Below are positions 1,305-25,820 of a stretch of DNA of 55,530 bases, one piece after another. The notes under the pieces are model-generated. The model saw only the letters and a list, made by a program, of their open reading frames with translations. It was not told the DNA's origin and ran no database searches. The stretch lies in IMG/VR virus record IMGVR_UViG_2602041669_000011; one strand, given 5' to 3'. How positions within the stretch are numbered: the stretch's first letter is position 1; every line of letters begins with the position of its first letter. The position numbers and the translations under genes are program-made. The DNA is from a virus (Duplodnaviria > Heunggongvirae > Uroviricota > Caudoviricetes).

Positions 1305-4300
1305 TTATGCGTATTGTTGGATGACGGCCAGAACGTCCGCCACGTTGTGTTTTGTCTCGATAATCCACCAGTTACCCGGGAAATCGCTGTTCTTCGCCTT
1401 CGCTGGCAGCCAGCGAGCGCCGAATTTCGCCTTGATTGCGTCTTTCGCACGGAAAAGAACGCCTTTCATGCCTGAGGCTTCCTGAAGCCCAAATACCTCG
1501 CCAGCGGCGAATTTTGGTGCGTACATCATCTTCAGGTCGGCGGTGGATACGCGATAATTCAGACCAAGAGACTGAGCTATGCTGGTGGCATCACCCTGTA
1601 TTGATGATAACTCTTCTTGTTTCTCGTTTCTGGCGGCAATCTCTTCCTCCGTGATGTTGCCAAGGGCCAGGTTTATCCGATCAGCGTCGGCCTGTTTCTC
1701 TTCATCGGTGCGCCCGGCAAGAACCGTGTTAATTCTCTGCAATATCTCCACATGATTCTTGCGCATGCTGAGCAATTCCGGCGTAACCTCGTTAAGATCC
1801 ACCAGCCCAAGGATGGCAAGGTCGGAAAACATTGATACCAGGTTGTAGGTCATGCGATAGCTGAGTTGACCATAGGCTGATGGCAACTGCACCGCATCCA
1901 TTTTATAGGCATCCATAAATTTAGAGCCGTCGTTTACGACATCCGCAATTGCCGGTGTGATTTTTCCTGTGGTGGCGGCCTCCCTGATTGCTGTTACCCA
2001 CGATTGAGTCAGCGCGGAAACTGCATGATTCAGATTGGCTTTGCGTTCTGCTGCAATGCGCGCGCTTGCAGCGTCCATTGACTGTTTGATCTCGTCTTTA
2101 TTGCTGTAAATGCCAATGGTGCCAAACTGTGCTGTGGTGATCTCATAATCTGACGCCCGGAACTCATTGGTACCGAAAATGGCATTGGTGACTTCAAGTT
2201 CAGAATCCCCGTTACGAGTAGCCCCCTGGCTTGTTTTTTCCGGCATTCTGGCGATCGCATCCGCTATTTTCTCCTGAATTGCTTCAGGGGATAGCGTATC
2301 TCCGTATGACGCGATTACATCGCCATAATTGGAGCCAAACAGTTCAACCAGGAATGTTTCTGCCGAACGGATCTGGCGGTTATTCCCTTCCGACATCATA
2401 CCAAGCACCCATTTTGCAATTGACGACTTCAGCGCGCCGTCACGGCGATCCGGGTAAACCGCATGCTTCAGTGGGTCCGTATAGGTACCAACAAAATCGA
2501 TGCTATAGCCTGACTCTGTAGTCTGAACGCCGTATGAGTCAGTGATTTTGATCATGCCGCGCTGCTGGAAACGGTAGAAATCGTCACAGGAAATGATGTC
2601 GTTAATCCCGGCGATGGAGACGCCACCACTGATTTTCTGCATAACAGCATCTTCATCGGGAGTTACATCAACCTGTTTATCCAGCGTCTTCACATCCCAG
2701 TTACCCGATTTGGTACCTTTGAAGGTAAAGATAATCTCCACGTCTGCGCGCTGGCTGTCGAAGTCCAGCGACTTAATGCGAACGATATCACCGGCACAAT
2801 CGTAGTATTGGCCTACACGCCATGAGCGATCGCCGATAACAAGGAACTCACTCGCATGGTTAACCAGGTCAGGATCAACATCCAGAATGCCTTTATTTAT
2901 TGCATCCTCCACCAGCGGGCGCAGGCGTTTGATATCCGTCGCGGCCTTCTGAGTACGGTTCAATAATTTCTCATAGCGGGAGATGGCTTGAGAGATATTA
3001 GCCTTGCGCTGAATGGCGCTTTTCAACGACGCGCGATACTGTGCTAACAACGTACGGTCTGTGTGATGGACGCTACCCCAGCGGGCTTTCCAGTCTGCGT
3101 TATCAGCTGCTTTGGCCATTACCGCCTGTTTGAATTTAGCTACCTCGGCGGTGGTCTTTTCAAGTTCCGCTTTGCTTCGCTCCAATTCAGCGGTAAGTAC
3201 CTCCACATCCTCACCAGCTGCGTGCTGCGCCTTGATGTAGTTCTGAAGGTCGATAGTAGCCTGTTCTTTCTGGCGAGCGCGTTTCGCAGCTTTCGCCTTA
3301 TCCATTTGAACCTGCATCATTACCAGACGTTCGCCGTCATCCTTCGCGGTATACATCTGCATTTCGATCATGTCATTGGCGTCGGCGTTCTCCATTTCTG
3401 ACTTATCTGAACGGAGGATATCGGAGATCCAGCCTGCTTTACGCTTCAGCGTCTTCAGTCGGTATTCATCGAAAGACCCCTTGCCGCAGTAGTAGTGAAC
3501 GCGAACGCTTGCACGGTTGGAGCCAACTCGTGCACCGCGACCGTTACGTTGTGCGATACTGGCTGGTGTCCACGGCAACGTCAGGTGGTGGATATCCGTC
3601 GTTCCTCGATGCAGGTTGATACCCACCTCTGCCTTTTTGTTGCAGATGATGATCGGAGTCCGGCCCTCCTGGAAGTCGGCAGCAATCTTTTCCAGCCCAC
3701 CCAGCGACATTTCATTTTGCTGCGCGATATAGGCGTCATACAGAGCCATTTGCTCGTTGTATTTCGCTATCTGTGCATCTGTTGGTTCATCCGGTAGCTC
3801 TTTCGGCGGTTTAACCGCTTTCAGTTTCTTACCGGTTTTACCTGCCTCGGCAACCGTCTGAGCATTCAGGATCCCCACCTTTGAAGGTTCAAGGTTAAGA
3901 GCATTGCAGATAATGCGCTTGAGCTTCTGGTGTTGCGTTTTTTCATCGGTGAAGATGATTTGCTTACCTTCCGGGAAAAACTCCTTCAGCGTGGCAATCA
4001 GCTTCGCGTATTTGGGCGTAACGGGGTGAGTTACGGTCTGTTCGTCAATGCCAAACTTGGCCAGGCGCTTATTCACTTCCTGCTCAAATGCTTCCGGTAC
4101 CTGCAACTGAATAAACTCGCCCTTATCTATCAGGGAGTATTGCGATTGCTGCGTGATCGAATCATCACTGTCGTCGTCTTCGCTGGTGGCTTGTTTAGGC
4201 AAACTGTCCGCCAGCTGCTGCACCGCATCGGCGTACTCCGGCAGGAAACGATAGGTGATCCTGCGATAGTACAGGTCCATGTCAGTACATACGCGGTCCA

Positions 4301-7300
4301 TATCCCTGATTATTGAGAAGATCGGACGGGCTTTCTCGTGCTCAATCACGCCGTCTTCATTGACCGAGGTCGTTACGCCATTGTTGGCTTTGGCTGCCGC
4401 TTCCGCCTGCTGACGCAATTCTTCATACGCCGCCAGTTGTTCTTCCGTAAGTGGTGCATCCTGCTGGTGTTCGTCCAGTTCCGGGATCTCCACGGTATCC
4501 TTAACGTCTTCCGCCGTTTTAAGCGTTGTCCAGCGATGGAATATGCCGCGCAGCGCATCAAGGTTTTCAAAGCCCACCAGCGCCATTTTTTCTTCAACTT
4601 CACCGCTGATTTTCTGTACCGTTTCCAGCCTGGTCTTGCCGAAGAATTTAACGAAGTCATCAGGACCGTAGATCCCCATCTTCTGCCAGTATTCCTTCGG
4701 CAGCACATGAGAAAGCATGTTGTATGCATCGATCGGGGTGTTAACGACTGGCGTTGCAGTCAGGAGAACCGGTCCGCGCCCACCATTCTTTTTCATCAGG
4801 TACGCGTTTTTAATTGCCATATCCCGCGCCGATTGCGCCACCGCGCTGGTGGGCAGATAGGCCAGTTGTGACGCTTCGCGACCATTTTTATAGCTATTGC
4901 GGTAGTTGTGACCTTCGTCAGCGATCACACTATCGAAGCCCATATCCTCAAAGTACGGATACTTCTCTGCTTTTTCGGTGCCGGTATCTGAATACTCCGA
5001 CAATACCCGGCGACGCGCGGCCTCTTTGCGGTGGGAGTCGGAGTCCATTGCGCTGGCTACGCGCCCGGCGGCAACGAAGTCATAAAGCATATCCTGTGCA
5101 TGCTCATCTACGGTGTCATCACGTAGCGGAATGCGGGCGTATTGTTCTTTGGTAAACACGACTGCACGGTAATTTGAGTGCGGGATCGCGTTCATCCGCG
5201 CCGTGATAGTGGCTTCATCTGCCAGTTTTAGGGCATCGCGCATAACTGGAGTGCCATCAGTACCAAGAACAGGTTTACCGTTCTCATCGAGCACCGGCAC
5301 CTGGCGAATCTGATCGCCATCCATCAGCACATCAAGACCGACGAACAGGTAGTTACTGAATGCCTCTTCACTCAGGAATTCTTTTGCTTCGTAATACCAG
5401 TTTTCCAGCACTGATTTAGGCACTACATACGCAGTACGGGTGGAGCGACCGTTCTCATAGTTGAACGCCTCAAGCGCCAGCGCGGTCGTAGTTTTACCCA
5501 GCCCGGTGCCGAAGCCCAGGATGCCGCGCCCATCTTCGGACAGTCGGCGCACTTCGCTATTCTGGTAATCAAATGGCTGGCGCTTACCGCTTAATCCCTT
5601 CAACCCAAGCGGATCGCCAGAGTGTTCATACGGGATATTGCTATTGAACACATCGTTGTATTTGGCAACCAGTTCATCGTAGCGATCGTGCGTCTTGATC
5701 CACTTATTGAACTGGTCCTCAAGCAGTGCCATCTGCTCGCGGTAGCCGTTCGCCGTCGCGCTATCTTTGCCACCGATACGCGCACCATTGAGATACTTTT
5801 CCAGCTGTGCCGGGAACCCGGTCGCGTTTTCACCTGATTTACGGTCCCACTCGTAGCGGATCTCGCCTGTTTCTTTATCCTTGCGCTGGACGACACCGTA
5901 TCGGTGCCCGACGAACAGGCCATCACCACCGTGATAGGTGTCAGAAACCATTTCGTCGCCTTCCAGCTGCACTGACTGCACATAGCGCAGATCCGGATAG
6001 CCGTTTTCCTGCAAAAACTCCAGAATGACGGAACGGTCGAACCAACGGCTATTGAGCTTAAACCGGATATTCTCTGCTGGCGTCTTGATGCGCTTCTCTT
6101 CGATCGCTGCCAGCTGATTAAGGACGTTGTTCTTTACTGGACCGTCGGGGAGCGTGGCGAGGAATTCCTGTTTTGGAGCCACTATCTCGTTAATGTCGCC
6201 GCTGGTGGCGCGGGCGAACGGAACAATCCCGCCATACGGTGAAACCGCAATACCAGGAGTGCTGGCCAATAAATTAAGCAACTCTTCATCACTGGCTGGC
6301 AATTCGCCGGTAAACGCAAGGCGGAAATCATCGAGCTGGATTGGATCGCGGGTAAGATCGCTATAGAGATAACGCAGGGTGTCCTGATAGCTGGTGGAGT
6401 CATAACTGGCGCTGGAATCATGCGTAACCAGCTTTCCTGTCAGCTCGTCAGAAATAGTGCCATCCAGCTTAATTGCACCACGGAAAGCAAACCAGGCGCG
6501 CGCACCGCTTCCCGATAATTTAGCTATCGGACCGCGACCAGGGTTACCAAAACGGTCAATCTCTGCCTGCAAACGGGATACCAGAGAAAGGCGCTGCTGT
6601 TCGATTTGTTCAGCACTATGCCCGGCGGCCTTCATATCCTGATATTCAATTAACATCCGGCCAATCATCGCCCCACGATACAAGCGTTCACGGTATTTTT
6701 CAGGCTGGCTGTTAATCCAGTCCACCAGCTGCACCATATCGTCGCTGATTGATGTGGTGTACTTATCGCGGACATTTGCCATCTGGGTAAATGTCATACC
6801 GAGACGGCCTTCTGTTGTAGTCAGGTTACGCTGAAGAGCCTCCCAGCTATCCGCGCCATAACTGGCAGCATCAATTTTAAGTTCCTTCCCGGCATCAGCT
6901 TCAATCCAGCGACCACCAGCATATTTTTGCCATACGCCATTAATCAGGCGCATTTCCCCTTCACCAACAACGTCTGCGGTCAGTGACGGTTCAGCCATAT
7001 CGAGCAAAGACCAGTCGATACGGCTTTCGAAACGATGAATCAGCTTCGCTTTAAGAGCCTGGTTATCAATCTGACCGTCGGCACGAACCTCAATACGCCC
7101 CTGGAAGCCCTTTTCCTGGGTGCCATGAACAAACCGGCGGCCATCCTTTTCAAACCACTTGCCAGAAATAAACGTTGGCCAAAGCACATTTGCCGATTCA
7201 AGAGTGCTTTCATCCACCAGGGGGATTTTCTCAGCCATCTCTGCCGGATGTTTGCGCATCAGCACCACATCAACGACTGTACTGGTCCCGTTTGCGTCAA

Positions 7301-19662: not shown

Positions 19663-20274
19663 TTAATTTCCTGCTTTCAGTTGCTTAAGACGGCGTTTGA
19701 GTTCGCCATTTCGGGCCTTTTCGTTATTGAGTCGGCCTGTCTCCTTATCCAGCTTCGCCCGCAAATCAGTGATCTGCTGTTGATTGAAAGACACCGAGTT
19801 CTGCGCTGATTTATAAGCGGCAACCACCTGAGCATTCCGCTGTTTTGCCTCTTGCAGGCGCTGAAAGTTGGATTTTACTGCCGGTTTCTTGTCTACCGGA
19901 TTGGCAACACGTTTCGCTTTGGCGATCAGTGATTTCTGGAATTTTGCGGAGTTTTTGCGGGCCGCTTGCCCCATGACGGTACCAAGCGTCTTGATATCCG
20001 GCGACTGAGCGTTAGGAATAGCTTTTCCATTCAGCCTCACAGACGATATATCGCCAGTATCGTTTACCTGTATGGCAAGAATTTGTCCGTCGTTAAGAAC
20101 CAGCTTTGCGGTTTTAACTTTAACGCCATCTTTCGTTGTTGCGCGGTTGCTGGAGTCAACCTCAATTACCGTAACACCGGTTTTATTGATCGCCGCGATA
20201 AGGGATTTCAGCCCCTTTTCATTAACCTGGTCAAAATCGACCGTTGCATACTTATTTTTCGTCATCTGACACAT
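19663..20274 (-). CDS. hdf: Hdf-like protein (203 aa), first gene of the dar operon
   Basis: 203-aa ORF immediately upstream of darA (1-nt intergenic), K-rich coiled-coil C-terminus. Confidence 0.5.
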   Translation of the reverse strand: MCQMTKNKYATVDFDQVNEKGLKSLIAAINKTGVTVIEVDSSNRATTKDGVKVKTAKLVLNDGQILAIQVNDTGDISSVRLNGKAIPNAQSPDIKTLGTVMGQAARKNSAKFQKSLIAKAKRVANPVDKKPAVKSNFQRLQEAKQRNAQVVAAYKSAQNSVSFNQQQITDLRAKLDKETGRLNNEKARNGELKRRLKQLKAGN

Positions 20275-20695
20275 CCTGTGCGAGATTTATTACGTAACTT
20301 CTGCGGATTTGCTGAGTAACAGGGAAAATCCGATACAACGGGTTAATGAACGAGTCGCCATGCGTAACCATGACGTTGAAATGCCACAGCCGTTCTCCTT
20401 TACCCATATATTCAGTGGGTATGTACAACCATTCACTGTTTTCGCCCTGTTCAGCCGACGTCAGACAACGTTGTTCGCCTTCAATCACTGTCGTTGGCTT
20501 CTGAACATCGCGGATCCAATATCTGACCGTTGCGCCGCGCAAAAACGGGAATTTAGACCGGTATTTGAACGGCACCCGGATGAAACCCGGTTTAATTTCC
20601 ACATCACCAAGTTCTAAATGCGTGATGTCCTTGCGTTTTAGCAAATAGCGATCGGCTAAGGCTAACGCAAGAGCGCATACACCCCAGCCAATCAT
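20252..20695 (-). CDS. lydB: LydB-like antiholin (147 aa)
   Basis: N-terminal hydrophobic anchor (MIGWGVCALALALA) then soluble domain; start overlaps the lydA stop. Confidence 0.5.
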   Translation of the reverse strand: MIGWGVCALALALADRYLLKRKDITHLELGDVEIKPGFIRVPFKYRSKFPFLRGATVRYWIRDVQKPTTVIEGEQRCLTSAEQGENSEWLYIPTEYMGKGERLWHFNVMVTHGDSFINPLYRIFPVTQQIRRSYVINLAQDVSDDEK

Positions 20696-21021
20696 TTCCC
20701 ACCTCCCTTTTTCACCAAACTTGTAAGAACATTCAGAATGCTATCGATATTCACTCGTTTCATCCCTGAAATCACCTCATGACCGTTATTGCTGGCTATC
20801 GTTACCATTAAGTACGTAATTGATAACTCCCAGCCCTCGTGTTGCCCCAATAGGTACGCCACCGCACCAGCTGTCACTGCAACAAAGATCTCCGTAACCA
20901 ATCCCAACAAATTGCCAGACTGGCGACCGTCTCGGACATCCATCAGGAACGTGCCTATCCCACCAATTACTGAAAGCAGGAGCGCAATAGCAACTGGAGC
21001 TAATTCCTGTGTGTCAAGCAC
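20692..21021 (-). CDS. lydA: LydA-like holin (109 aa)
   Basis: 109-aa protein with 2-3 predicted transmembrane helices and charged C-terminus (KKGGGK); GTG start with strong AGGAGGG RBS. Confidence 0.6.
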   Translation of the reverse strand: MLDTQELAPVAIALLLSVIGGIGTFLMDVRDGRQSGNLLGLVTEIFVAVTAGAVAYLLGQHEGWELSITYLMVTIASNNGHEVISGMKRVNIDSILNVLTSLVKKGGGK

Positions 21022-21042
21022 AAGTTCCCTCCTACGTTGTCA

Positions 21043-21288
21043 GGAGGTAATGGTATGCAAAGTAACTTCTCAACCGGTCATGCAAAGACAACAAGCGGAA
21101 AAAGAAAAGCAAAGCCTGCTACAGCTCGTCAGGGATAAAACTCAGCTCTGGGACTCACAGTTACGGCTAGGCATTATTTCCGTTCAGGGTAAACAAAAAT
21201 TAACCGAGTGGATTCTCTATGCGCAGAAAGTCGAATCCACGGATACCTCCATCCTTCCAGTAACGTTTCCCGAAAAGCCGGAATGAGG
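21043..21288 (+). CDS. Small hypothetical ORF (about 80 aa) ending at a terminator
   Basis: ORF within the 20789-21286 frame downstream of AGGAGG, followed by a hairpin terminator; start uncertain because the SD spacing is too short for the first ATG. Confidence 0.2.
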
Positions 21289-21289
21289 A

Positions 21290-21315
21290 AAGGCCCGGAA
21301 TCGGGCCTTAATTAA
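21290..21315 (+). terminator. Rho-independent terminator-like hairpin
   Basis: ggcccg-gaat-cgggcc hairpin followed by an A/T-rich run. Confidence 0.45.
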
Positions 21316-21620
21316 TATCTATAAGCTCAACAAATAAGAGCTAACAATTTTGTTAATTTCCTCTGGAAATAATGCATTGTGCTTATATATACCTGAAGCT
21401 ATATTAAAGAGCGTCATGTAAAAAATAAACCAATCAATTAAATCTATTTTCAACAAACAAGTCAAAATTTTTAACAGATATGTATAGAAATGGCAAGCCA
21501 TAAATTAATAATGACATCCTTAATAAGTCTAAAGAAACACTAAATAGATAAAATATAAATTATTACATCCAAAAATATAGAAAGTGTTGGCAATCTTGCA
21601 ACTCATTATCAATACAATAT

Positions 21621-21655
21621 TGACATCCCTTTAGCGCTCAGTTTAAAATTAACAT
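21621..21655 (+). promoter_or_regulatory. Candidate sigma70 promoter upstream of the acetyltransferase
   Basis: TTGACA, 17-bp spacer, TTAAAAT in an AT-rich intergenic region. Confidence 0.25.
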
Positions 21656-21776
21656 TTGTGTTTACATTGTGCGTTGATTTAGTTTAGCAGGAACGCAGTA
21701 ACACACTGATGATTATTGTTTTAATTATAATGTCAATATATAACCATAGAAACCAAAAAATATAGGCAGTTGCAAT

Positions 21777-22349
21777 ATGTTATGTTACTTAATAGCTATT
21801 CACTTTGTCATCTTCGGGAATTCAAAAGCTCTATTGAGCTACTGGATGGCTGAAATCATCAGGCGTGAAAAAATGGATGTTTGGCGACTATTAAGAGAGA
21901 AGAAGCAGCGCAATCGGAATTTCCTTTTCTGGTGGAGACTGGCTAATGAAATGTATATTAATGGCAATAAATTACATAAGAAAGCAGCCAGAAAGTTAAA
22001 CAATAATATAATTAACAGATTTGGTTGCGAAATTGGATTGGGCGCAAATATTGGAAAAGGTTTAACAATTCCCCATCATACTGGAATTGTTGTTCATTTT
22101 GCTGTTGATGCTGGTGAAAATCTGGTTTTGCGACAGAATACTACCATTGGACAGATAGATGGTGACATGCCTGGTTCAAGAGTAAAAATTGGTAATAACG
22201 TTGATATCGGAGCTAATTGTTGCATCATTGGATTATCACGTAAAATTGGGGATAATGTAAAAATAGGTGCAATGTCTTTTATAAATAAAGATATACCATC
22301 GAACTGCACATATATAACAAAAAAGAGCGGTGTTGTATTGTATAAATAG
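21777..22349 (+). CDS. Hexapeptide-repeat O-acetyltransferase (WcaB/CysE-like)
   Basis: Imperfect hexapeptide repeats ([LIV]G.N..IG) typical of left-handed beta-helix acetyltransferases; likely true start at ATG 21849 (about 167 aa); AT-rich codon usage unlike the flanking phage genes. Confidence 0.7.
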   Translation: MLCYLIAIHFVIFGNSKALLSYWMAEIIRREKMDVWRLLREKKQRNRNFLFWWRLANEMYINGNKLHKKAARKLNNNIINRFGCEIGLGANIGKGLTIPHHTGIVVHFAVDAGENLVLRQNTTIGQIDGDMPGSRVKIGNNVDIGANCCIIGLSRKIGDNVKIGAMSFINKDIPSNCTYITKKSGVVLYK

Positions 22350-22357
22350 AGTACATG

Positions 22358-22397
22358 AAGCCATCAATATTTCTATCGATGGCTTTATCCTTTTATT
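22358..22397 (+). terminator. Hairpin terminator between acetyltransferase and tfa (convergent)
   Basis: aagccatc / gatggctt 8-bp stem with 12-nt loop, followed by a T-rich run. Confidence 0.4.
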
Positions 22398-22971
22398 GCG
22401 GGGCGACTGGCCACTCAACATCCGATGCTACTGTTGTATCAACACGATTCAACAATACCCGATATGTCTTCCATGCAGTCAGTAACGATGCCTCTTCCTC
22501 CGTCGCAATATCCAAATCTACGGCATCCTGAAGTGGCGCAATATGCTCACTGGCCATCTGCATCAGGCTGTTTTTTGTTTCTTCCGCCTTCCGGATCCGG
22601 AACAGTTTTTCTGCTTCTGCATCTTTCACCCAGGCTGTGCCGTTCCACTTCTGAAACTCCCCTTCCGGGGATAACCAGGTGACATTTTCCGGTAATGGGC
22701 CAAGTTCAGAAATAAATAACGCGTCGCCGGAAGCCACGTCATAGACGGTTTTTCCCCGATGGTCTTCAACGAGATTCCACGATGCCTCATCACTGTTGAA
22801 AACGGCCACGAAGCCAGCCGGAATATCTGGCGGGGCAATATCGGTACTGTTTGCAGGCAGACCTGTATGAGGTGGAATGTATGCATCACCTTCACCAATA
22901 AACTCATTGGTTCCGGTCAGTAGATTATAAATTTTTATGGTCCGTGATTGTTCACTCATTCTGAATGTCAT
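22393..22971 (-). CDS. U: Tail fibre assembly chaperone (Tfa/U-like)
   Basis: 192-aa ORF immediately downstream of the tail fibre gene; resembles lambda Tfa / Mu U-type tail fibre assembly proteins. Confidence 0.75.
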
Positions 22972-25820
22972 TATGCAAGCCTCACAATATAGTTAAATGC
23001 GATGTTTTTTACGGTGTTTTCTTCGTTACCCGTAGCGTTAACGGTGATGGTGTGTCCGTGGGGACCAATAATGACAGAATGGGCATGAGCACCAATGCCG
23101 ATAGTGTGGTTATGGGCACCGATATATACATTGTGAGCATGCTCGCCTGCGCTCGACGTGGTACCAGTACCTAACGCAGCGTTAAAACCGGCTGATACAC
23201 CATTCCCCGCGCCAGTGTGACCAACAGGTATATTGTGTGAATGATTTCCAGCGCTATTCGTAGTTTTTGTGCCGTAATCAAATGAACTGGTCGTTTTAGT
23301 ACCGTAATCAAACGACGATGTGGTTTTCGTCCCCAAATCCGTACTGGATGCGCTGGCGCTGTGGGTGTGCGATTTAATGCCGTCCTGTTCCTGAGACAAT
23401 ACGGCACGACCACTGCCGGGCTTGCCCTTAATCGTCCAGCCACGCATATCAGGAATAACGCCTGACGGATAAGCCGCTGCAAGTTTCGGGTATGCAGATT
23501 TGTCAAAAGTCTGCCCCTGCATCAGGGCATAACCAGACGGAACGGTATCTGATGGCCACGGGATTGGTGCGCCGACTGGGTAGCTTTCTGGTGGAAGATT
23601 TTTCGAGGTATAAACTTCTGCCCAGTCTTCCTCAAAACCATAACCGTCTCTTGAAGAACGGTAGAACAGACCACCATTTCTGTAATGCGCCTTCATCTGC
23701 AAGGTCGGGCAACTTCCGACTCCGGTATAGAAGTTAACCAGAATATAGCTGTCGGCAGAGCGAATGACATTGTAAGCGCCTGATTCGGCATTCCAGGGAA
23801 CGCCCCCATCCGCATCGGCATACGTATCCGTTGCTCTTCTGGCAAAAGCAGCAACATGCGCAGCGGTTAAAGTGATATCAGTAGAACCATCAAACGAGAC
23901 GCCATTGATAGTACATGCTGTCTGCAACTTGGTCGCTGTAGCCGCATTACCAGAGGTGTCCTGATCCCCTTTGGCATTGACGCCGGGAATTGAATCTTTT
24001 GACGTATAGACCTGCGCCCATTCAGACCAGTTGGCAGAATCAGTATCACGCCGCGAACGGATATGTACGGGCGCATGGTCACCGCTCGTGCCACTCCAGC
24101 CAATGAATAACTCACCTTCGCCAGCAGCGGTGGCACCTTTAAGGTGAAGCACATTGCCATAGGGGGAAGGGTAGCCATTGTTGTATGCCTCATACAGCTG
24201 AATCCCGGATGTTCCCTGTGCATTCGCCTCTAGGGCCGTTACGCGACCGCGAGATACCAGAGTATTGATATTAATGTCAGCCGAACCATCGAACCTGACG
24301 CCATTAATGTTTATGGCTGTTTTTAATTTCGTCGCGGTGTCGGCGTTCCCTGTCAGCGCCCCGGTGATCCCGCCGTTGAAACTCTGGCGCGCACTCCATG
24401 TGTTAGCCGTGCTCAACAGGGGGATCTTTTCACCGCTGGTACCGAGTTCTCTTAAACCAAGGTATTGGATAACGGCCTGTGTGCTTGTTTTAGCCAGAAT
24501 ATCGCGACCGACTGACGTTAAATCAGTCTGAGCTACCGTATCCTTACCAGTGAAATAAGGCAGTTTGTTTGCACCAGTCGCAAGGGCAGCGAGAGCGGTT
24601 AAAGTTGCATCCAGAGGCTGTTTGCCTGCCAGCGCATTTGTCATTGTTGTCGCAAAGTTCGGGTCATTGCCAAGTGCTGCGGCAAGCTCATTCAGGGTAT
24701 CAAGAGCTTCTGGTGATGAACCAACCAATGCGGATATGGCAGCTCTTACATAAGCGGTCGTAGCAATCTGCGTGTTATTCGTACCCTGTGCAGCGGTAGG
24801 CGCAGTAGGTATTCCCGTTAATGCAGGACTTGCTAAAGGCGCTTTAAGGGCCAGAGCATTGTTGATAGTTGTGCTGAAATTCGGGTCGTTATTGATCGCA
24901 GCAGCTATTTCTTTAAGTGTATCCAGTGTGCCAGGTGCACCGTTGATAAGTGCAGTTATAGCTGCCTTAACAAAGGCTGTATTTGCGATCTGTGTGCTGT
25001 TTGTACCTTGCGCCGCCGTCGGCGCGGTTGGCGTTCCTGTCAGACTCGGGCTTTCTATTGGCGCTTTGGTATCAGCAAGATCTTTTACAGACTTAACGGC
25101 TTTAGGGGTAGCCGCCATTGTTTCGCTATCGCTGTTAGTTTCGCTACTGAGCTGAACTAATCCCTTTTGCGTTGTGCTTGCATCCTGCGCCGTATACTTG
25201 CTTTTCGCCAGATCGTAGGCTTTTTTAACTGCCAGCGAACTTGCAGCAACATCACTTCTGCTACTGGTTACAGAGTCTGAAATATCAATGCCGATCGTGC
25301 GGTTAATACGCTCGGATGTATCAATCATCTCCTGGGTAATGGCTGATACTCCAGCAGGGATATTCACCGTACAAACAAGCAGCTCCCCATCTCCTAACTG
25401 ATATGAATCGGTATAGGTTCTGGTAACAAATTCAGCCGCATGAATATGTGACGCGGTATTAACCTGATAGGTATCCTCTCCAAGGAGGTATCTTCCCTTC
25501 AGCACAATTGCATATTTCTTGCCTGCACTAAGTGCAAGATGAATATCCGTACGTTGCTGAATAGTTACCTGGTAGAATTCACCAATATCCACCGACGCCG
25601 CGCCTGCGGTTTTATCTCCATCCACTGAGGTGATTAACAGGTTCATCCCACCGCCAGGCTTAGGTAAGAAACCGGCATAAAATCCCGGGTCAACAATCCC
25701 CCTGAATTTTCGGTTTAGCGCGGCTGACAGATATGGTTCGTGGTATTGCACATCAGCAACCAGAGCCAACGACTCGGGTGATGGGTAAGTAACCGATGTA
25801 ACAACTGTAACGTCATTCAT
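22971..25820 (-). CDS. S: Tail fibre protein S
   Basis: ORF 22971-25907; probable start at MNDVTVV (25820) overlapping the R stop; internal phage tail-fibre repeats ([21 protein letters not shown]... twice) and His-rich HxH C-terminal tip. Confidence 0.8.
23253..23343 (-). repeat. Three tandem 30-bp coding repeats within S ([10 protein letters not shown] x3)
   Basis: Direct tandem repeats visible in the DNA and the translation. Confidence 0.6.

What the first reader, a model, noticed from the sequence alone, without database searches (positions are those of the whole stretch)
21022..22392. Cin invertase and invertible C segment absent; replaced by AT-rich cargo with a hexapeptide O-acetyltransferase next to the tail fibre genes
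In P1 the interval between lydA/lydB and the tail fibre genes holds cin and the invertible segment with alternative Sv'/U' halves. Here the interval is only about 1.4 kb and AT-rich. It contains a small ORF with terminator and a WcaB/CysE-like hexapeptide acetyltransferase gene (21777/21849-22349) convergent with tfa. A polysaccharide O-acetyltransferase carried beside the receptor-binding fibre is a plausible lysogenic-conversion or receptor-masking function, although phage O-antigen acetylases are usually membrane acyltransferases, so this type would be unusual.
Basis: partly seen in the sequence, partly recalled or inferred. Interest (0 to 1): 0.65.

Follow-up and report, generated by a model that had tools for sequence, protein, structure and literature searches.

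The report
Tail-fibre-linked acetyltransferase in cin-deleted P1-like phage
A P1-like plasmid-prophage has lost its tail-fibre switching enzyme through a 2.9-kb deletion, and it separately carries a widespread but uncharacterised sugar-acetyltransferase-like gene that always travels with a lambda-type tail-fibre tip and probably alters the host cell surface.

Summary
Two separate events explain the interval.

1. A 2,870-bp deletion relative to P1, with its junction at 21081|21082. It removed lydC, cin, cixL, Sv' and the 5' part of U'. It left a 78-codon U' stub, one 0.6-kb C-segment repeat and an orphan cixR (24450-24469). The fibre is now locked.

2. An older swap of U/Sv for a cassette made of a lambda-like Stf tip, Tfa and the acetyltransferase. 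In phage JL22 this cassette sits inside an intact invertible segment.

The acetyltransferase (21777-22349, 190 aa) has a serine-acetyltransferase-like fold: a helical N-domain plus a left-handed beta-helix. It fails the CysE, WcaB and EpsC family thresholds. It belongs to phrog_2154 (function unknown) and is under purifying selection.

It occurs in 530 of 5,426 complete E. coli genomes, always next to this tfa, in P1-like, P2-like and other prophages. More distant relatives sit either beside tail-fibre genes or inside LPS core and O-antigen clusters.

The best reading is a cytoplasmic O-acetyltransferase that modifies a surface glycan, probably LPS, for lysogenic conversion. This is inferred, not shown. 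The gene was already annotated and noted in the literature as unexplained. Interest is moderate.

The parts
20692..21021 (-). lydA holin, first gene of the darA late operon. It marks the left boundary of the interval.
   Evidence: Pfam Phage_holin_3_3. 98.9% identical to P1 across window 20000-21081.
21050..21068 (-). Retained P1 late promoter LPdar. Its position was mapped from the P1 annotation.
   Evidence: P1 L010 9213-9231 is annotated LPdar. It falls inside the collinear block window 20000-21081 = L010 8163-9244.
21081..21082 (.). Deletion junction. Relative to P1, 2,870 bp are missing (L010 9245-12114), covering lydC, cin and its promoters and enhancer, cixL, Sv' and the 5' 329 nt of U'.
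   Evidence: blastn against P1 and JL22. Junction sequences were read directly. The same junction is present in 49 of 5,426 complete E. coli genomes and in phage Ro157c2YLVW.
21050..21286 (+). 78-codon ORF that is a truncated U' tail-fibre-assembly remnant. The U' part is 21082-21286. The start codon and RBS come by chance from the lydA upstream region. It is probably a pseudogene.
   Evidence: Pfam Caudo_TAP, profile 55-131 of 131, E 4e-18. phrog_3792 and phrog_136. 86% identical to the 3' end of P1 U'. Translation compared with JL22 U'.
21290..21309 (.). GC-rich hairpin inherited from the P1 U'/U spacer. P1 homology ends at 21313.
   Evidence: RNA fold, -15.1 kcal/mol. Window 21082-21313 = P1 L010 12115-12346.
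21314..21776 (+). AT-rich spacer (26.8% GC) found only in P1-like plasmids. It contains a sigma-70-like site, TTGACA-18-TAAAAT, at 21620-21649 upstream of the acetyltransferase. No conserved gene lies in it.
   Evidence: GC content. Promoter scan, 11 of 12 matches. Present in 65 genomes, all on plasmids. The 60-aa minus-strand ORF at 21319-21501 is frameshifted in JL22 and Ro157 and has no family hits.
21777..22349 (+). 190-aa acetyltransferase with a SAT-like fold (helical N-domain plus left-handed beta-helix). It belongs to phrog_2154 and is usually annotated 'serine O-acetyltransferase' or sacF.
   Evidence: NCBIfam and Pfam scans. PDB sequence hits. AlphaFold pLDDT 86.8. Foldseek probability 1.0 to CysE structures. 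PHROG E 1e-83. dN/dS 0.1-0.19.
22355..22388 (.). Hairpin between the convergent acetyltransferase and tfa genes. It is a likely bidirectional terminator.
   Evidence: RNA fold, -16.6 kcal/mol, followed by a T-rich tract.
22393..22971 (-). tfa, a lambda-type tail-fibre assembly chaperone.
   Evidence: Pfam Caudo_TAP, E 8e-43. 89-92% DNA identity to lambda and lambdoid tfa/stf.
22971..25820 (-). Chimeric tail-fibre gene S/stf. It has a lambda Stf-like tip (22971-23582), a non-P1 linker (23583-23881), the right 0.6-kb C-segment repeat (23882-24470) and the P1 constant part Sc.
   Evidence: blastn against P1, JL22 and P2-like prophages. Lambda hits. PGAP coordinates taken from the identical plasmid p95JB1A.
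24450..24469 (+). Orphan cixR recombination site, an exact match to the P1 cixR 20-mer.
   Evidence: Exact match, and no other cix-like site within 5 mismatches in the window.

Best explanation
Structure (shown). The window is a P1-like plasmid-prophage, 100% identical across the cargo interval (21290-22392) to E. coli O111 plasmid p95JB1A. Two independent events shaped its tail-fibre region.

First, the U/Sv half of the invertible C segment was exchanged for a cassette. The cassette holds a lambda Stf-like fibre tip, the lambda-type chaperone Tfa, and a convergent 190-aa acetyltransferase. An AT-rich spacer lies upstream of the acetyltransferase.

Second, a 2,870-bp deletion fused the lydA upstream region to the middle of U'. 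It removed lydC, cin, cixL and Sv'. One cix site remains and no invertase, so the fibre is locked in a single specificity.

Function (inferred). The acetyltransferase is most likely a cytoplasmic, trimeric, acetyl-CoA-dependent O-acetyltransferase. It is probably expressed in the lysogen from its own sigma-70 promoter, independently of the late fibre operon. I propose that it acetylates a sugar of a surface glycan precursor at the inner face of the membrane. The most likely acceptor is LPS outer core or an O-unit. The lysogen's surface would then be altered: lysogenic conversion, with receptor masking or superinfection exclusion against phages that use that glycan, possibly including phages with the linked fibre. 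It is not a cysteine-pathway serine acetyltransferase.
For: Structure:
- Collinearity and breakpoints against P1 and JL22.
- JL22 carries the same cargo inside an intact cin/cixL/Sv'/U' segment.
- There is no Cin homologue and only one cix site in the window.
- The deletion junction is in 49 genomes.

Enzyme:
- SAT-like fold: pLDDT 86.8, Foldseek probability 1.0, TMq up to 0.72.
- His100 is invariant and the acidic residue of the CysE catalytic dyad is conserved.
- The best NCBIfam matches are polysaccharide acetyltransferases and CysE: EpsC 77.5 bits, CysE 65.3, WcaB 56.4.
- dN/dS is 0.1-0.19 across alleles from different phage backbones, and every copy examined is an intact 573-nt ORF.

Linkage to tail fibres:
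- The gene is in 575 records (530 genomes), and the acetyltransferase-tfa junction is in the same number, 575 records (530 genomes).
- The cassette is shared at 87-94% identity with P2-like and other myovirus prophages, and the shared stretch begins within 1-8 nt of the acetyltransferase start codon.
- Relatives at 42-74% identity are again convergent with tail-fibre or Tfa genes: a Citrobacter lambdoid, E. coli P2-like prophages, Buttiauxella and an Orbaceae genome.

Link to glycans:
- In an Erwinia amylovora prophage the gene overlaps an upstream Acyl_transf_3 gene in an operon-like arrangement. Acyl_transf_3 is the classic O-antigen acetylase family.
- Chromosomal relatives lie in a Leminorella waa LPS-core cluster (GT4-GT8-WaaY-acT-WaaL), in a Pseudomonas hldE-msbA-kinase-acT-neuB region, and in a GT2-acT-wbpA/wbpB-like O-antigen cluster.

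Expression signals: a promoter-like site and flanking hairpins.
Against: - No biochemical or genetic data exist for any member of the family. PHROGs lists the function as unknown, and the JL22 authors call its presence unexplained.
- All named family scores fall far below their curated cut-offs, so the acceptor cannot be read from homology.
- Several relatives have contexts that are neither phage nor LPS, for example Rahnella and a Desulfobacterales genome.
- From my own knowledge, lambda Stf-type tips are thought to bind OmpC rather than a glycan. A direct self-receptor-masking role is therefore uncertain.
- Linkage to tfa could reflect co-transfer at a recombination-prone moron site rather than functional coupling. 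Most tfa copies (6,537 places) lack the gene.
- The promoter is only a consensus match. AT-rich DNA yields many such matches: 11 found against 6.2 expected.
Confidence: 0.6

Rival explanations
1. The enzyme is a genuine serine O-acetyltransferase (CysE-like). It would be an auxiliary metabolic gene that raises O-acetylserine and cysteine supply in the lysogen or during phage growth. This is what database annotation implies.
For: PGAP and RefSeq name it serine O-acetyltransferase. The closest solved structures, by sequence and by fold, are all CysE/SAT. The catalytic His and acidic residue are conserved.
Against: - The CysE equivalog scores are 65.3 against a cut-off of 210.65, and 42 against 397.
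- Pfam finds no SATase_N domain.
- The protein ends right after the beta-helix, so it has no C-terminal CysK-binding tail.
- The residue aligned to the serine-binding Asp next to the catalytic His is Pro and varies across the family. The loop that holds the carboxylate-binding Arg-His in CysE is not conserved.
- Relatives sit in LPS and O-antigen clusters and beside an Acyl_transf_3 gene, not with cysteine genes.
Confidence: 0.07
2. The enzyme is a glycan O-acetyltransferase, but its acceptor is not LPS. It could be colanic acid, enterobacterial common antigen or a capsule. It would then affect biofilm formation, serum resistance or capsule-dependent phages, as NeuO does for K1 polysialic acid.
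For: EpsC and WcaB are among the best family matches. The prophage-encoded LbH enzyme NeuO is a precedent (PMC3046976). Phage-encoded capsule acetyltransferases are known in Acinetobacter.
Against: The chromosomal relatives examined lie in waa, core or O-antigen regions rather than capsule or colanic-acid loci. No NeuO-type chain appears among the PDB sequence hits at E<=0.01. No NeuO-like tandem repeats are present for phase variation.
Confidence: 0.15
3. The enzyme acetylates a non-glycan target, such as a small-molecule toxin or antibiotic, a nucleotide or a protein. It would act as a defence, counter-defence or resistance moron at a known accessory-gene hotspot next to the tail-fibre genes.
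For: In P2-like prophages it sits directly after the tail-fibre assembly gene. From my own knowledge, this is the position of the P2 Z/fun accessory locus. LbH enzymes include xenobiotic acetyltransferases, and there are weak Vat and maltose/galactoside acetyltransferase matches.
Against: There is no PADLOC hit. The Vat match is only E 0.027. The fold and best matches belong to the SAT/EpsC/WcaB branch. The association with LPS clusters and Acyl_transf_3 points to glycans.
Confidence: 0.12
4. One reading: a single event in which AT-rich foreign cargo replaced cin and the whole invertible segment.
For: In this window the cargo does lie where cin and the C segment lie in P1.
Against: JL22 and other P1-like plasmids carry the same cargo together with intact cin, cixL, Sv' and U'. 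The deletion junction (21081|21082) is 232 bp from the cargo boundary (21313|21314), and the DNA between them is P1 U' sequence. Both cargo alleles, about 5% apart, occur with the same junction.
Confidence: 0.03

Closest known systems
Phage P1 cin / invertible C segment (Punavirus P1, NC_005856)
   Same: The backbone is the same, with the order lydB-lydA ... U'/U ... S-R. The window retains LPdar, the 3' end of U' with its hairpin, the right 0.6-kb repeat, an exact cixR and the constant part Sc.
   Different: lydC, cin, cixL, Sv' and the 5' part of U' are deleted. U and Sv are replaced by lambda-type tfa and an Stf tip plus the acetyltransferase. The fibre cannot invert.
Escherichia phage vB_EcoM-Ro157c2YLVW (NC_050153) and plasmids p95JB1A and pO111_2
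   Same: They have the same deletion junction, the same U' stub, the same acetyltransferase-tfa-fibre arrangement, and 98-100% identity.
   Different: Ro157c2YLVW carries the other cargo allele, about 5% divergent between 21300 and 22500.
Escherichia phage JL22 'sacF' (ON018986; PMC9603915)
   Same: It has the same AT-rich spacer, acetyltransferase, tfa and stf tip, at 95.8% identity. The authors noted the gene and called its role unknown.
   Different: JL22 keeps lydC, cin, both 0.6-kb repeats, Sv' and a full U'. Its cargo therefore lies inside a presumably still invertible segment.
NeuO, the polysialic-acid O-acetyltransferase of E. coli K1 prophage CUS-3
   Same: It is a prophage-encoded, cytoplasmic, left-handed beta-helix, acetyl-CoA-dependent O-acetyltransferase that modifies a surface polysaccharide of the lysogen (PMC3046976).
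   Different: It belongs to a different LbH subfamily and is absent from the PDB sequence hits at E<=0.01. NeuO is phase-variable through 5' heptanucleotide repeats, and no tandem repeats are present here. The acceptor here is unknown.
CysE serine O-acetyltransferase
   Same: The overall architecture and the catalytic His/acidic pair are shared. CysE enzymes are the closest solved structures.
   Different: The protein falls below the family thresholds, lacks SATase_N and the C-terminal tail, and does not conserve the serine-binding residues. Its genomic context is phage or LPS, not cysteine metabolism.
WcaB / EpsC exopolysaccharide acetyltransferases
   Same: They are short SAT-like LbH enzymes encoded in polysaccharide loci, and they give the best NCBIfam matches.
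   Different: The scores of 77.5 (cut-off 150) and 56.4 (cut-off 194.65) mean it is not an equivalog.
Classical seroconverting acetylases (Oac of Sf6, OafA, GtrC; Acyl_transf_3 family)
   Same: The proposed biological role is the same: a prophage moron that O-acetylates LPS. In an Erwinia prophage a relative of this gene overlaps an Acyl_transf_3 gene.
   Different: Those enzymes are integral-membrane acyltransferases. This one is a soluble LbH enzyme that would act on the cytoplasmic side.

Membership tests
P1-type Cin invertible tail-fibre switch | A serine invertase gene (cin, gin or pin family) adjacent to the segment | tested here: not met
   tblastn of P1 Cin against the whole window gave only a 14-residue hit at E 3.2. 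The P1 cin region falls inside the deleted stretch, L010 9245-12114.
P1-type Cin invertible tail-fibre switch | Two inverted cix crossover sites or 0.6-kb inverted repeats | tested here: not met
   Only cixR (24450-24469) and one 0.6-kb repeat (23882-24470) are present. No other site lies within 5 mismatches.
P1-type Cin invertible tail-fibre switch | Two alternative fibre C-termini, each with its own chaperone | tested here: not met
   Only one complete set is present (Stf-like tip plus tfa). U' is a 3' stub and Sv' is absent.
Hexapeptide / left-handed beta-helix acyltransferase superfamily | Hexapeptide repeats that fold as a left-handed beta-helix | tested here: met
   Pfam Hexapep scores 24.6 bits, just under the gathering score of 27. 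The AlphaFold model has pLDDT 86.8 and short beta-strands through residues 105-180. Foldseek gives probability 1.0 to LbH SAT structures.
CysE serine O-acetyltransferase (TIGR01172 / NF008349) | Score above the curated equivalog cut-off | tested here: not met
   65.3 against 210.65, and 42 against 397.
CysE serine O-acetyltransferase (TIGR01172 / NF008349) | SATase_N domain and a C-terminal CysK-binding tail | tested here: not met
   Pfam finds no SATase_N domain. The protein ends about 10 residues after the last coil.
CysE serine O-acetyltransferase (TIGR01172 / NF008349) | Serine-binding residues: the Asp preceding the catalytic His, and the Arg-His loop (residue roles from my own knowledge of E. 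coli CysE) | tested here: not met
   Pro aligns to the Asp, and that column varies across the family. The loop residues are not conserved among 30 family members.
CysE serine O-acetyltransferase (TIGR01172 / NF008349) | Serine acetylation activity | not testable with these tools
   This needs an enzyme assay or cysE complementation.
WcaB colanic-acid acetyltransferase (TIGR04016) | Score above the curated cut-off | tested here: not met
   56.4 against 194.65.
EpsC (NF041874) | Score above the curated cut-off | tested here: not met
   77.5 against 150.
phrog_2154 (phage protein family, function unknown) | Full-length profile match | tested here: met
   E 1.1e-83, residues 13-190 matched to profile positions 3-181 of 185.
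Prophage lysogenic-conversion O-acetyltransferases (a functional class) | Prophage-borne, separately transcribed moron under selection | tested here: met
   The gene is convergent with the late fibre operon, is AT-rich, and has promoter-like and terminator-like signals. dN/dS is 0.1-0.19.
Prophage lysogenic-conversion O-acetyltransferases (a functional class) | Demonstrated O-acetylation of a surface glycan in lysogens | not testable with these tools
   There is only contextual support, from relatives in waa and O-antigen clusters and next to Acyl_transf_3.
Known anti-phage defence systems (PADLOC) | Match to a defence-system model | tested here: not met
   No hit at E<=0.1.

The most novel reading that the evidence does not exclude
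phrog_2154 would be a previously unrecognised class of soluble, SAT-like LPS (core or O-unit) O-acetyltransferases. Temperate phages would mobilise it as part of the receptor-binding cassette (fibre tip, Tfa chaperone, acetyltransferase). A phage that acquires a new host-range module would then also acquire the matching receptor-masking or superinfection-exclusion function. This would operate across P1-, P2-, lambda- and other prophage types, and in about 10% of E. coli genomes, notably STEC O157, O26 and O111.
Probability: 0.35. Interest if true: 0.65.

Novelty: new member of a known kind. Interest (0 to 1): 0.4.

Why it matters
If the enzyme acetylates LPS or another surface glycan, then about one in ten sequenced E. 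coli carry an unrecognised surface-modifying prophage gene. These include the major STEC serogroups. The gene could affect phage susceptibility (relevant to phage therapy and biocontrol), serotyping and immune recognition. Its strict linkage to a portable fibre-tip and chaperone cassette would be a clear example of host-range and receptor-modification functions moving together.

The current database name, "serine O-acetyltransferase, cysteine biosynthesis", is probably a misannotation that spreads through automated pipelines.

The cin deletion matters less. It shows that a sizeable sublineage of P1-like plasmids (49 complete genomes) has given up fibre switching and is locked to one host-range specificity.

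Tried and rejected
- Rfam scan of 20900-22500. It gave only a sub-threshold partial IS009 hit inside tfa and noise, with no RNA gene in the AT-rich spacer.
- The 60-aa minus-strand ORF at 21319-21501. It has no Pfam, NCBIfam, PHROG or PADLOC hit, and it is frameshifted in JL22 and Ro157c2YLVW. I rejected it as a gene.
- The shorter start codons at 21846 and 21873. Megablast to chromosomal copies starts at nt 97, which suggested them. However, the N-terminal 32 residues are conserved in length and pattern across the family and are confidently helical, so I rejected the shorter starts.
- NeuO-like phase variation. No tandem repeats are present.
- PADLOC defence models. No hit.
- Literature searches for a characterised function of this family. 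Terms covered serine acetyltransferase with tail fibre, phage-encoded SAT, P2 hotspot, CP-933T, and core O-acetyltransferase. They returned only annotation-level mentions.
I treated only L011-L025 as family members.
- A fuzzy search for a second cix site, allowing up to 5 mismatches, found none.
Full report
**What is in the sequence**

The window is a P1-like (Punavirus) plasmid-prophage. On the minus strand lie the darA late operon, ending in lydB (20252-20695) and lydA (20692-21021), and further along tfa (22393-22971) and the tail-fibre gene S/stf (22971-25820).

The interval 21022-22392 is 1,371 bp with 34.7% GC, against 47.8% for the whole window. It is not uniform. The stretch 21022-21313 has 46.9% GC, 21314-21776 has 26.8%, and the acetyltransferase gene has 34.9%.

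The cargo interval (21290-22392) is 100% identical to E. coli plasmids p95JB1A and p95NR1A. It is 99.8% identical to pO111_2 of O111:H- strain 11128. The wider stretch 20200-23600 is 98% identical to phage vB_EcoM-Ro157c2YLVW.

**Comparison with P1 and JL22**

blastn against P1 (NC_005856) gives three blocks.
- Window 20000-21081 matches P1 from lydB through lydA and the late promoter LPdar (98.9%).
- Directly after that, window 21082-21313 matches the last 205 nt of U' plus the U'/U spacer (86%).
- Window 23882-26498 matches S (95%).

The junction at 21081|21082 therefore marks a 2,870-bp deletion. It removed lydC, the cin promoters, cin with its enhancer, cixL, Sv' and the first 329 nt of U'.

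The C segment is not entirely gone. Window 23882-24470 is the right 0.6-kb inverted repeat; it also matches the left P1 repeat in reverse at 97%. An exact cixR 20-mer sits at 24450-24469.

tblastn with P1 Cin finds nothing in the whole 55.5-kb window. No second cix-like site exists within 5 mismatches. The tail fibre is therefore locked.

**The small ORF**

The ORF at 21050-21286 is a fusion. Its RBS and first 32 nt come from the lydA upstream region, where they overlap LPdar on the other strand. The rest is the C-terminal half of U' (Caudo_TAP profile 55-131 of 131, E 4e-18; phrog_3792).

The hairpin after it (21290-21309, -15.1 kcal/mol) is the P1 U'/U spacer hairpin. The ORF is most likely a pseudogene.

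**The cargo did not replace cin**

Phage JL22 (ON018986) has lydA-lydC-cin-Sv'-U', then the same AT-rich spacer and acetyltransferase ("sacF"), then tfa-stf. Both 0.6-kb repeats are present. In JL22 the cargo therefore lies between U' and tfa inside an intact invertible segment. In P1, U' and U are only 28 bp apart at that position.

The window's deletion junction is 232 bp away from the cargo boundary at 21313|21314.

The same junction occurs with two cargo alleles that differ by about 5%: the window type and the Ro157c2YLVW/JL22 type.

Among 5,426 complete E. coli genomes:
- 65 carry the P1-specific AT-rich spacer, all on plasmids;
- 49 carry the deletion junction.

**The acetyltransferase**

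The conserved CDS is the 190-codon ORF 21777-22349. An alignment of 30 family members conserves the N-terminal 32 residues in length and pattern. AlphaFold models them as helices with pLDDT above 90.

The model (mean pLDDT 86.8, pTM 0.83) has a five-helix N-domain followed by a left-handed beta-helix. Foldseek against the PDB returns only serine acetyltransferases at the top (probability 1.0, TMq 0.6-0.72).

Sequence searches agree on the branch but not on membership:

| NCBIfam family | Score (bits) | Curated cut-off |
|---|---|---|
| EpsC | 77.5 | 150 |
| CysE (TIGR01172) | 65.3 | 210.65 |
| WcaB | 56.4 | 194.65 |

Pfam Hexapep scores just under its threshold, and SATase_N is not detected.

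His100 is invariant and aligns with the CysE catalytic His. An acidic residue aligns with the dyad Asp.

The residue aligned to the serine-binding Asp is Pro and varies across the family. The loop that holds the carboxylate-binding Arg-His in CysE is not conserved. There is no C-terminal tail. The roles of these CysE residues come from my own knowledge of the E. coli enzyme.

The protein matches phrog_2154 (function unknown) at E 1e-83 and has no PADLOC match.

Across alleles from P1-like, P2-like and other prophages, every copy examined is an intact 573-nt ORF, with dN/dS of 0.1-0.19. The gene is therefore maintained by selection.

**Linkage to tail-fibre modules**

The gene is in 530 of 5,426 complete E. 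coli genomes (575 records; 533 chromosomal and 66 plasmid places). In the listed sample these are mostly O157:H7, O26:H11 and O111:H8.

A probe spanning the 3' ends of the acetyltransferase and tfa is fully covered in the same number of records, 575. Related tfa sequences without the gene occur at about 6,500 places in 3,948 genomes. The gene is therefore always beside this tfa, but the tfa usually lacks it.

The shared cassette covers window 21778/21785 to about 23580: the acetyltransferase, tfa and roughly the last 200 codons of the fibre. It recurs at 94% identity in P2-like prophages of O157:H7 EC4115 and O26:H11 11368, and at 87% in a different myovirus prophage next to yfhH.

More distant relatives repeat the convergent arrangement:
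- E. coli P2-like prophages, 68% identity;
- a Citrobacter lambdoid prophage with the order J-stf-tfa then the convergent gene, 51%;
- Buttiauxella, 74%;
- an Orbaceae genome with Caudo_TAP and fibre genes, 42%.

Other relatives sit near a prophage end or an integrase.

**Link to surface glycans**

In an Erwinia amylovora prophage the relative overlaps the stop codon of an upstream Acyl_transf_3 gene, the family of classical O-antigen acetylases. The pair is convergent with baseplate and fibre genes.

Chromosomal relatives lie in three glycan-related settings:
- a Leminorella grimontii waa cluster, GT4-GT8-WaaY-gene-WaaL (46% identity);
- a Pseudomonas/Halopseudomonas hldE-msbA-kinase-gene-neuB region (42-43% identity);
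- a Pseudomonas GT2-gene-UDP-sugar dehydrogenase-oxidoreductase cluster (42% identity).

A few relatives have uninformative contexts.

**Expression signals**

A TTGACA-18-TAAAAT site lies at 21620-21649, 128 nt upstream of the ATG. This is the best of 11 promoter-like matches, against 6.2 expected in shuffled sequence.

A hairpin at 22355-22388 (-16.6 kcal/mol) separates the convergent genes. No tandem repeats are present, so there is no sign of NeuO-like phase variation.

**Interpretation**

Shown: the anatomy, the two-event history, the loss of the switch, the fold, the failure of the CysE, WcaB and EpsC membership tests, purifying selection, and the strict linkage to tfa.

Inferred: that the enzyme is a cytoplasmic acetyl-CoA-dependent O-acetyltransferase acting on a surface-glycan precursor. 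LPS core or an O-unit is the most likely acceptor, given the waa and O-antigen contexts and the Acyl_transf_3 partner. Expression in the lysogen as a conversion or receptor-masking function is also inferred.

I put about 0.95 on the structural part and about 0.55 on the functional class. The exact acceptor is open.

Rivals, all scored in the report sections: a true serine acetyltransferase, a non-LPS glycan acceptor, and a non-glycan target.

**Novelty**

The arrangement is present in published genomes (pO111_2, Ro157c2YLVW, JL22). The JL22 paper explicitly noted the serine acetyltransferase gene and said the reason for its presence is unknown (PMC9603915).

A prophage LbH O-acetyltransferase has a precedent in NeuO (PMC3046976).

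As far as I could find, three points have not been described. The cargo and the cin loss are separate events. The gene is strictly co-mobilised with a fibre-tip and Tfa cassette across unrelated phage types. Its relatives sit in LPS clusters, which argues against the CysE annotation.

This makes it a new, uncharacterised member of a known kind, of moderate interest.

Noticed in passing
window 22430-22500 (-): Partial Rfam hit to IS009 (47.6 bits against a gathering score of 117, E 2e-9, model positions 129-199 of 199) inside the 3' part of tfa. It probably reflects the prophage tfa sequence from which that candidate sRNA family was defined.
   Followed up: no
window 21042-21068: The RBS-like AGGAGG and the ATG of the U' stub ORF lie on the strand opposite the retained late promoter LPdar and the lydA leader. 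The stub has no obvious promoter of its own, because the cin promoters were deleted.
   Followed up: partly
L007 (E. coli O157:H7 EC4115) and L006; L008 (O26:H11 11368): The P2-like prophages that carry the cassette have the FI-FII-E-T-U tail operon on the strand opposite V-W-J-I-H-G. In O157 they also carry ParM-type partition genes and IS insertions that truncate the fibre gene. This is an unusual P2-like layout.
   Followed up: no
L099-L101 (E. coli P2-like prophages), about 4617-6244: Next to the acetyltransferase homologue lies a truncated 87-aa Caudo_TAP. It is followed by a class I methyltransferase gene and then a full Tfa and fibre. This looks like a second moron inserted in the same fibre-end hotspot.
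   Followed up: no
L104 and L105 (Erwinia amylovora prophage), 2970-4558: An Acyl_transf_3 membrane acyltransferase and the LbH acetyltransferase homologue overlap by 4 nt, apparently forming an operon. A HicAB toxin-antitoxin pair lies just upstream.
   Followed up: partly
L091-L095 (E. coli prophage end next to copA): A 58%-identical homologue sits about 200 bp downstream of a hok/gef-type toxin gene, at the edge of an HP1/P2-like prophage. In this case it is not directly convergent with a Tfa gene.
   Followed up: no
window 23583-23881 against L002 8499-8961: The central linker of the chimeric fibre, between the 0.6-kb repeat and the lambda-like tip, differs in length between the window (292 bp) and JL22 (463 bp). 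It has no P1 homology, so it is a further mosaic joint in S.
   Followed up: no
window 21777-21872 against the P2-like copies: The first 32 codons of the acetyltransferase are far more divergent between the P1-like and P2-like copies (dN about 0.3) than the rest of the gene (dN about 0.02). The P2-like copies start with GTG. This suggests a recombination joint inside the gene's 5' end.
   Followed up: partly
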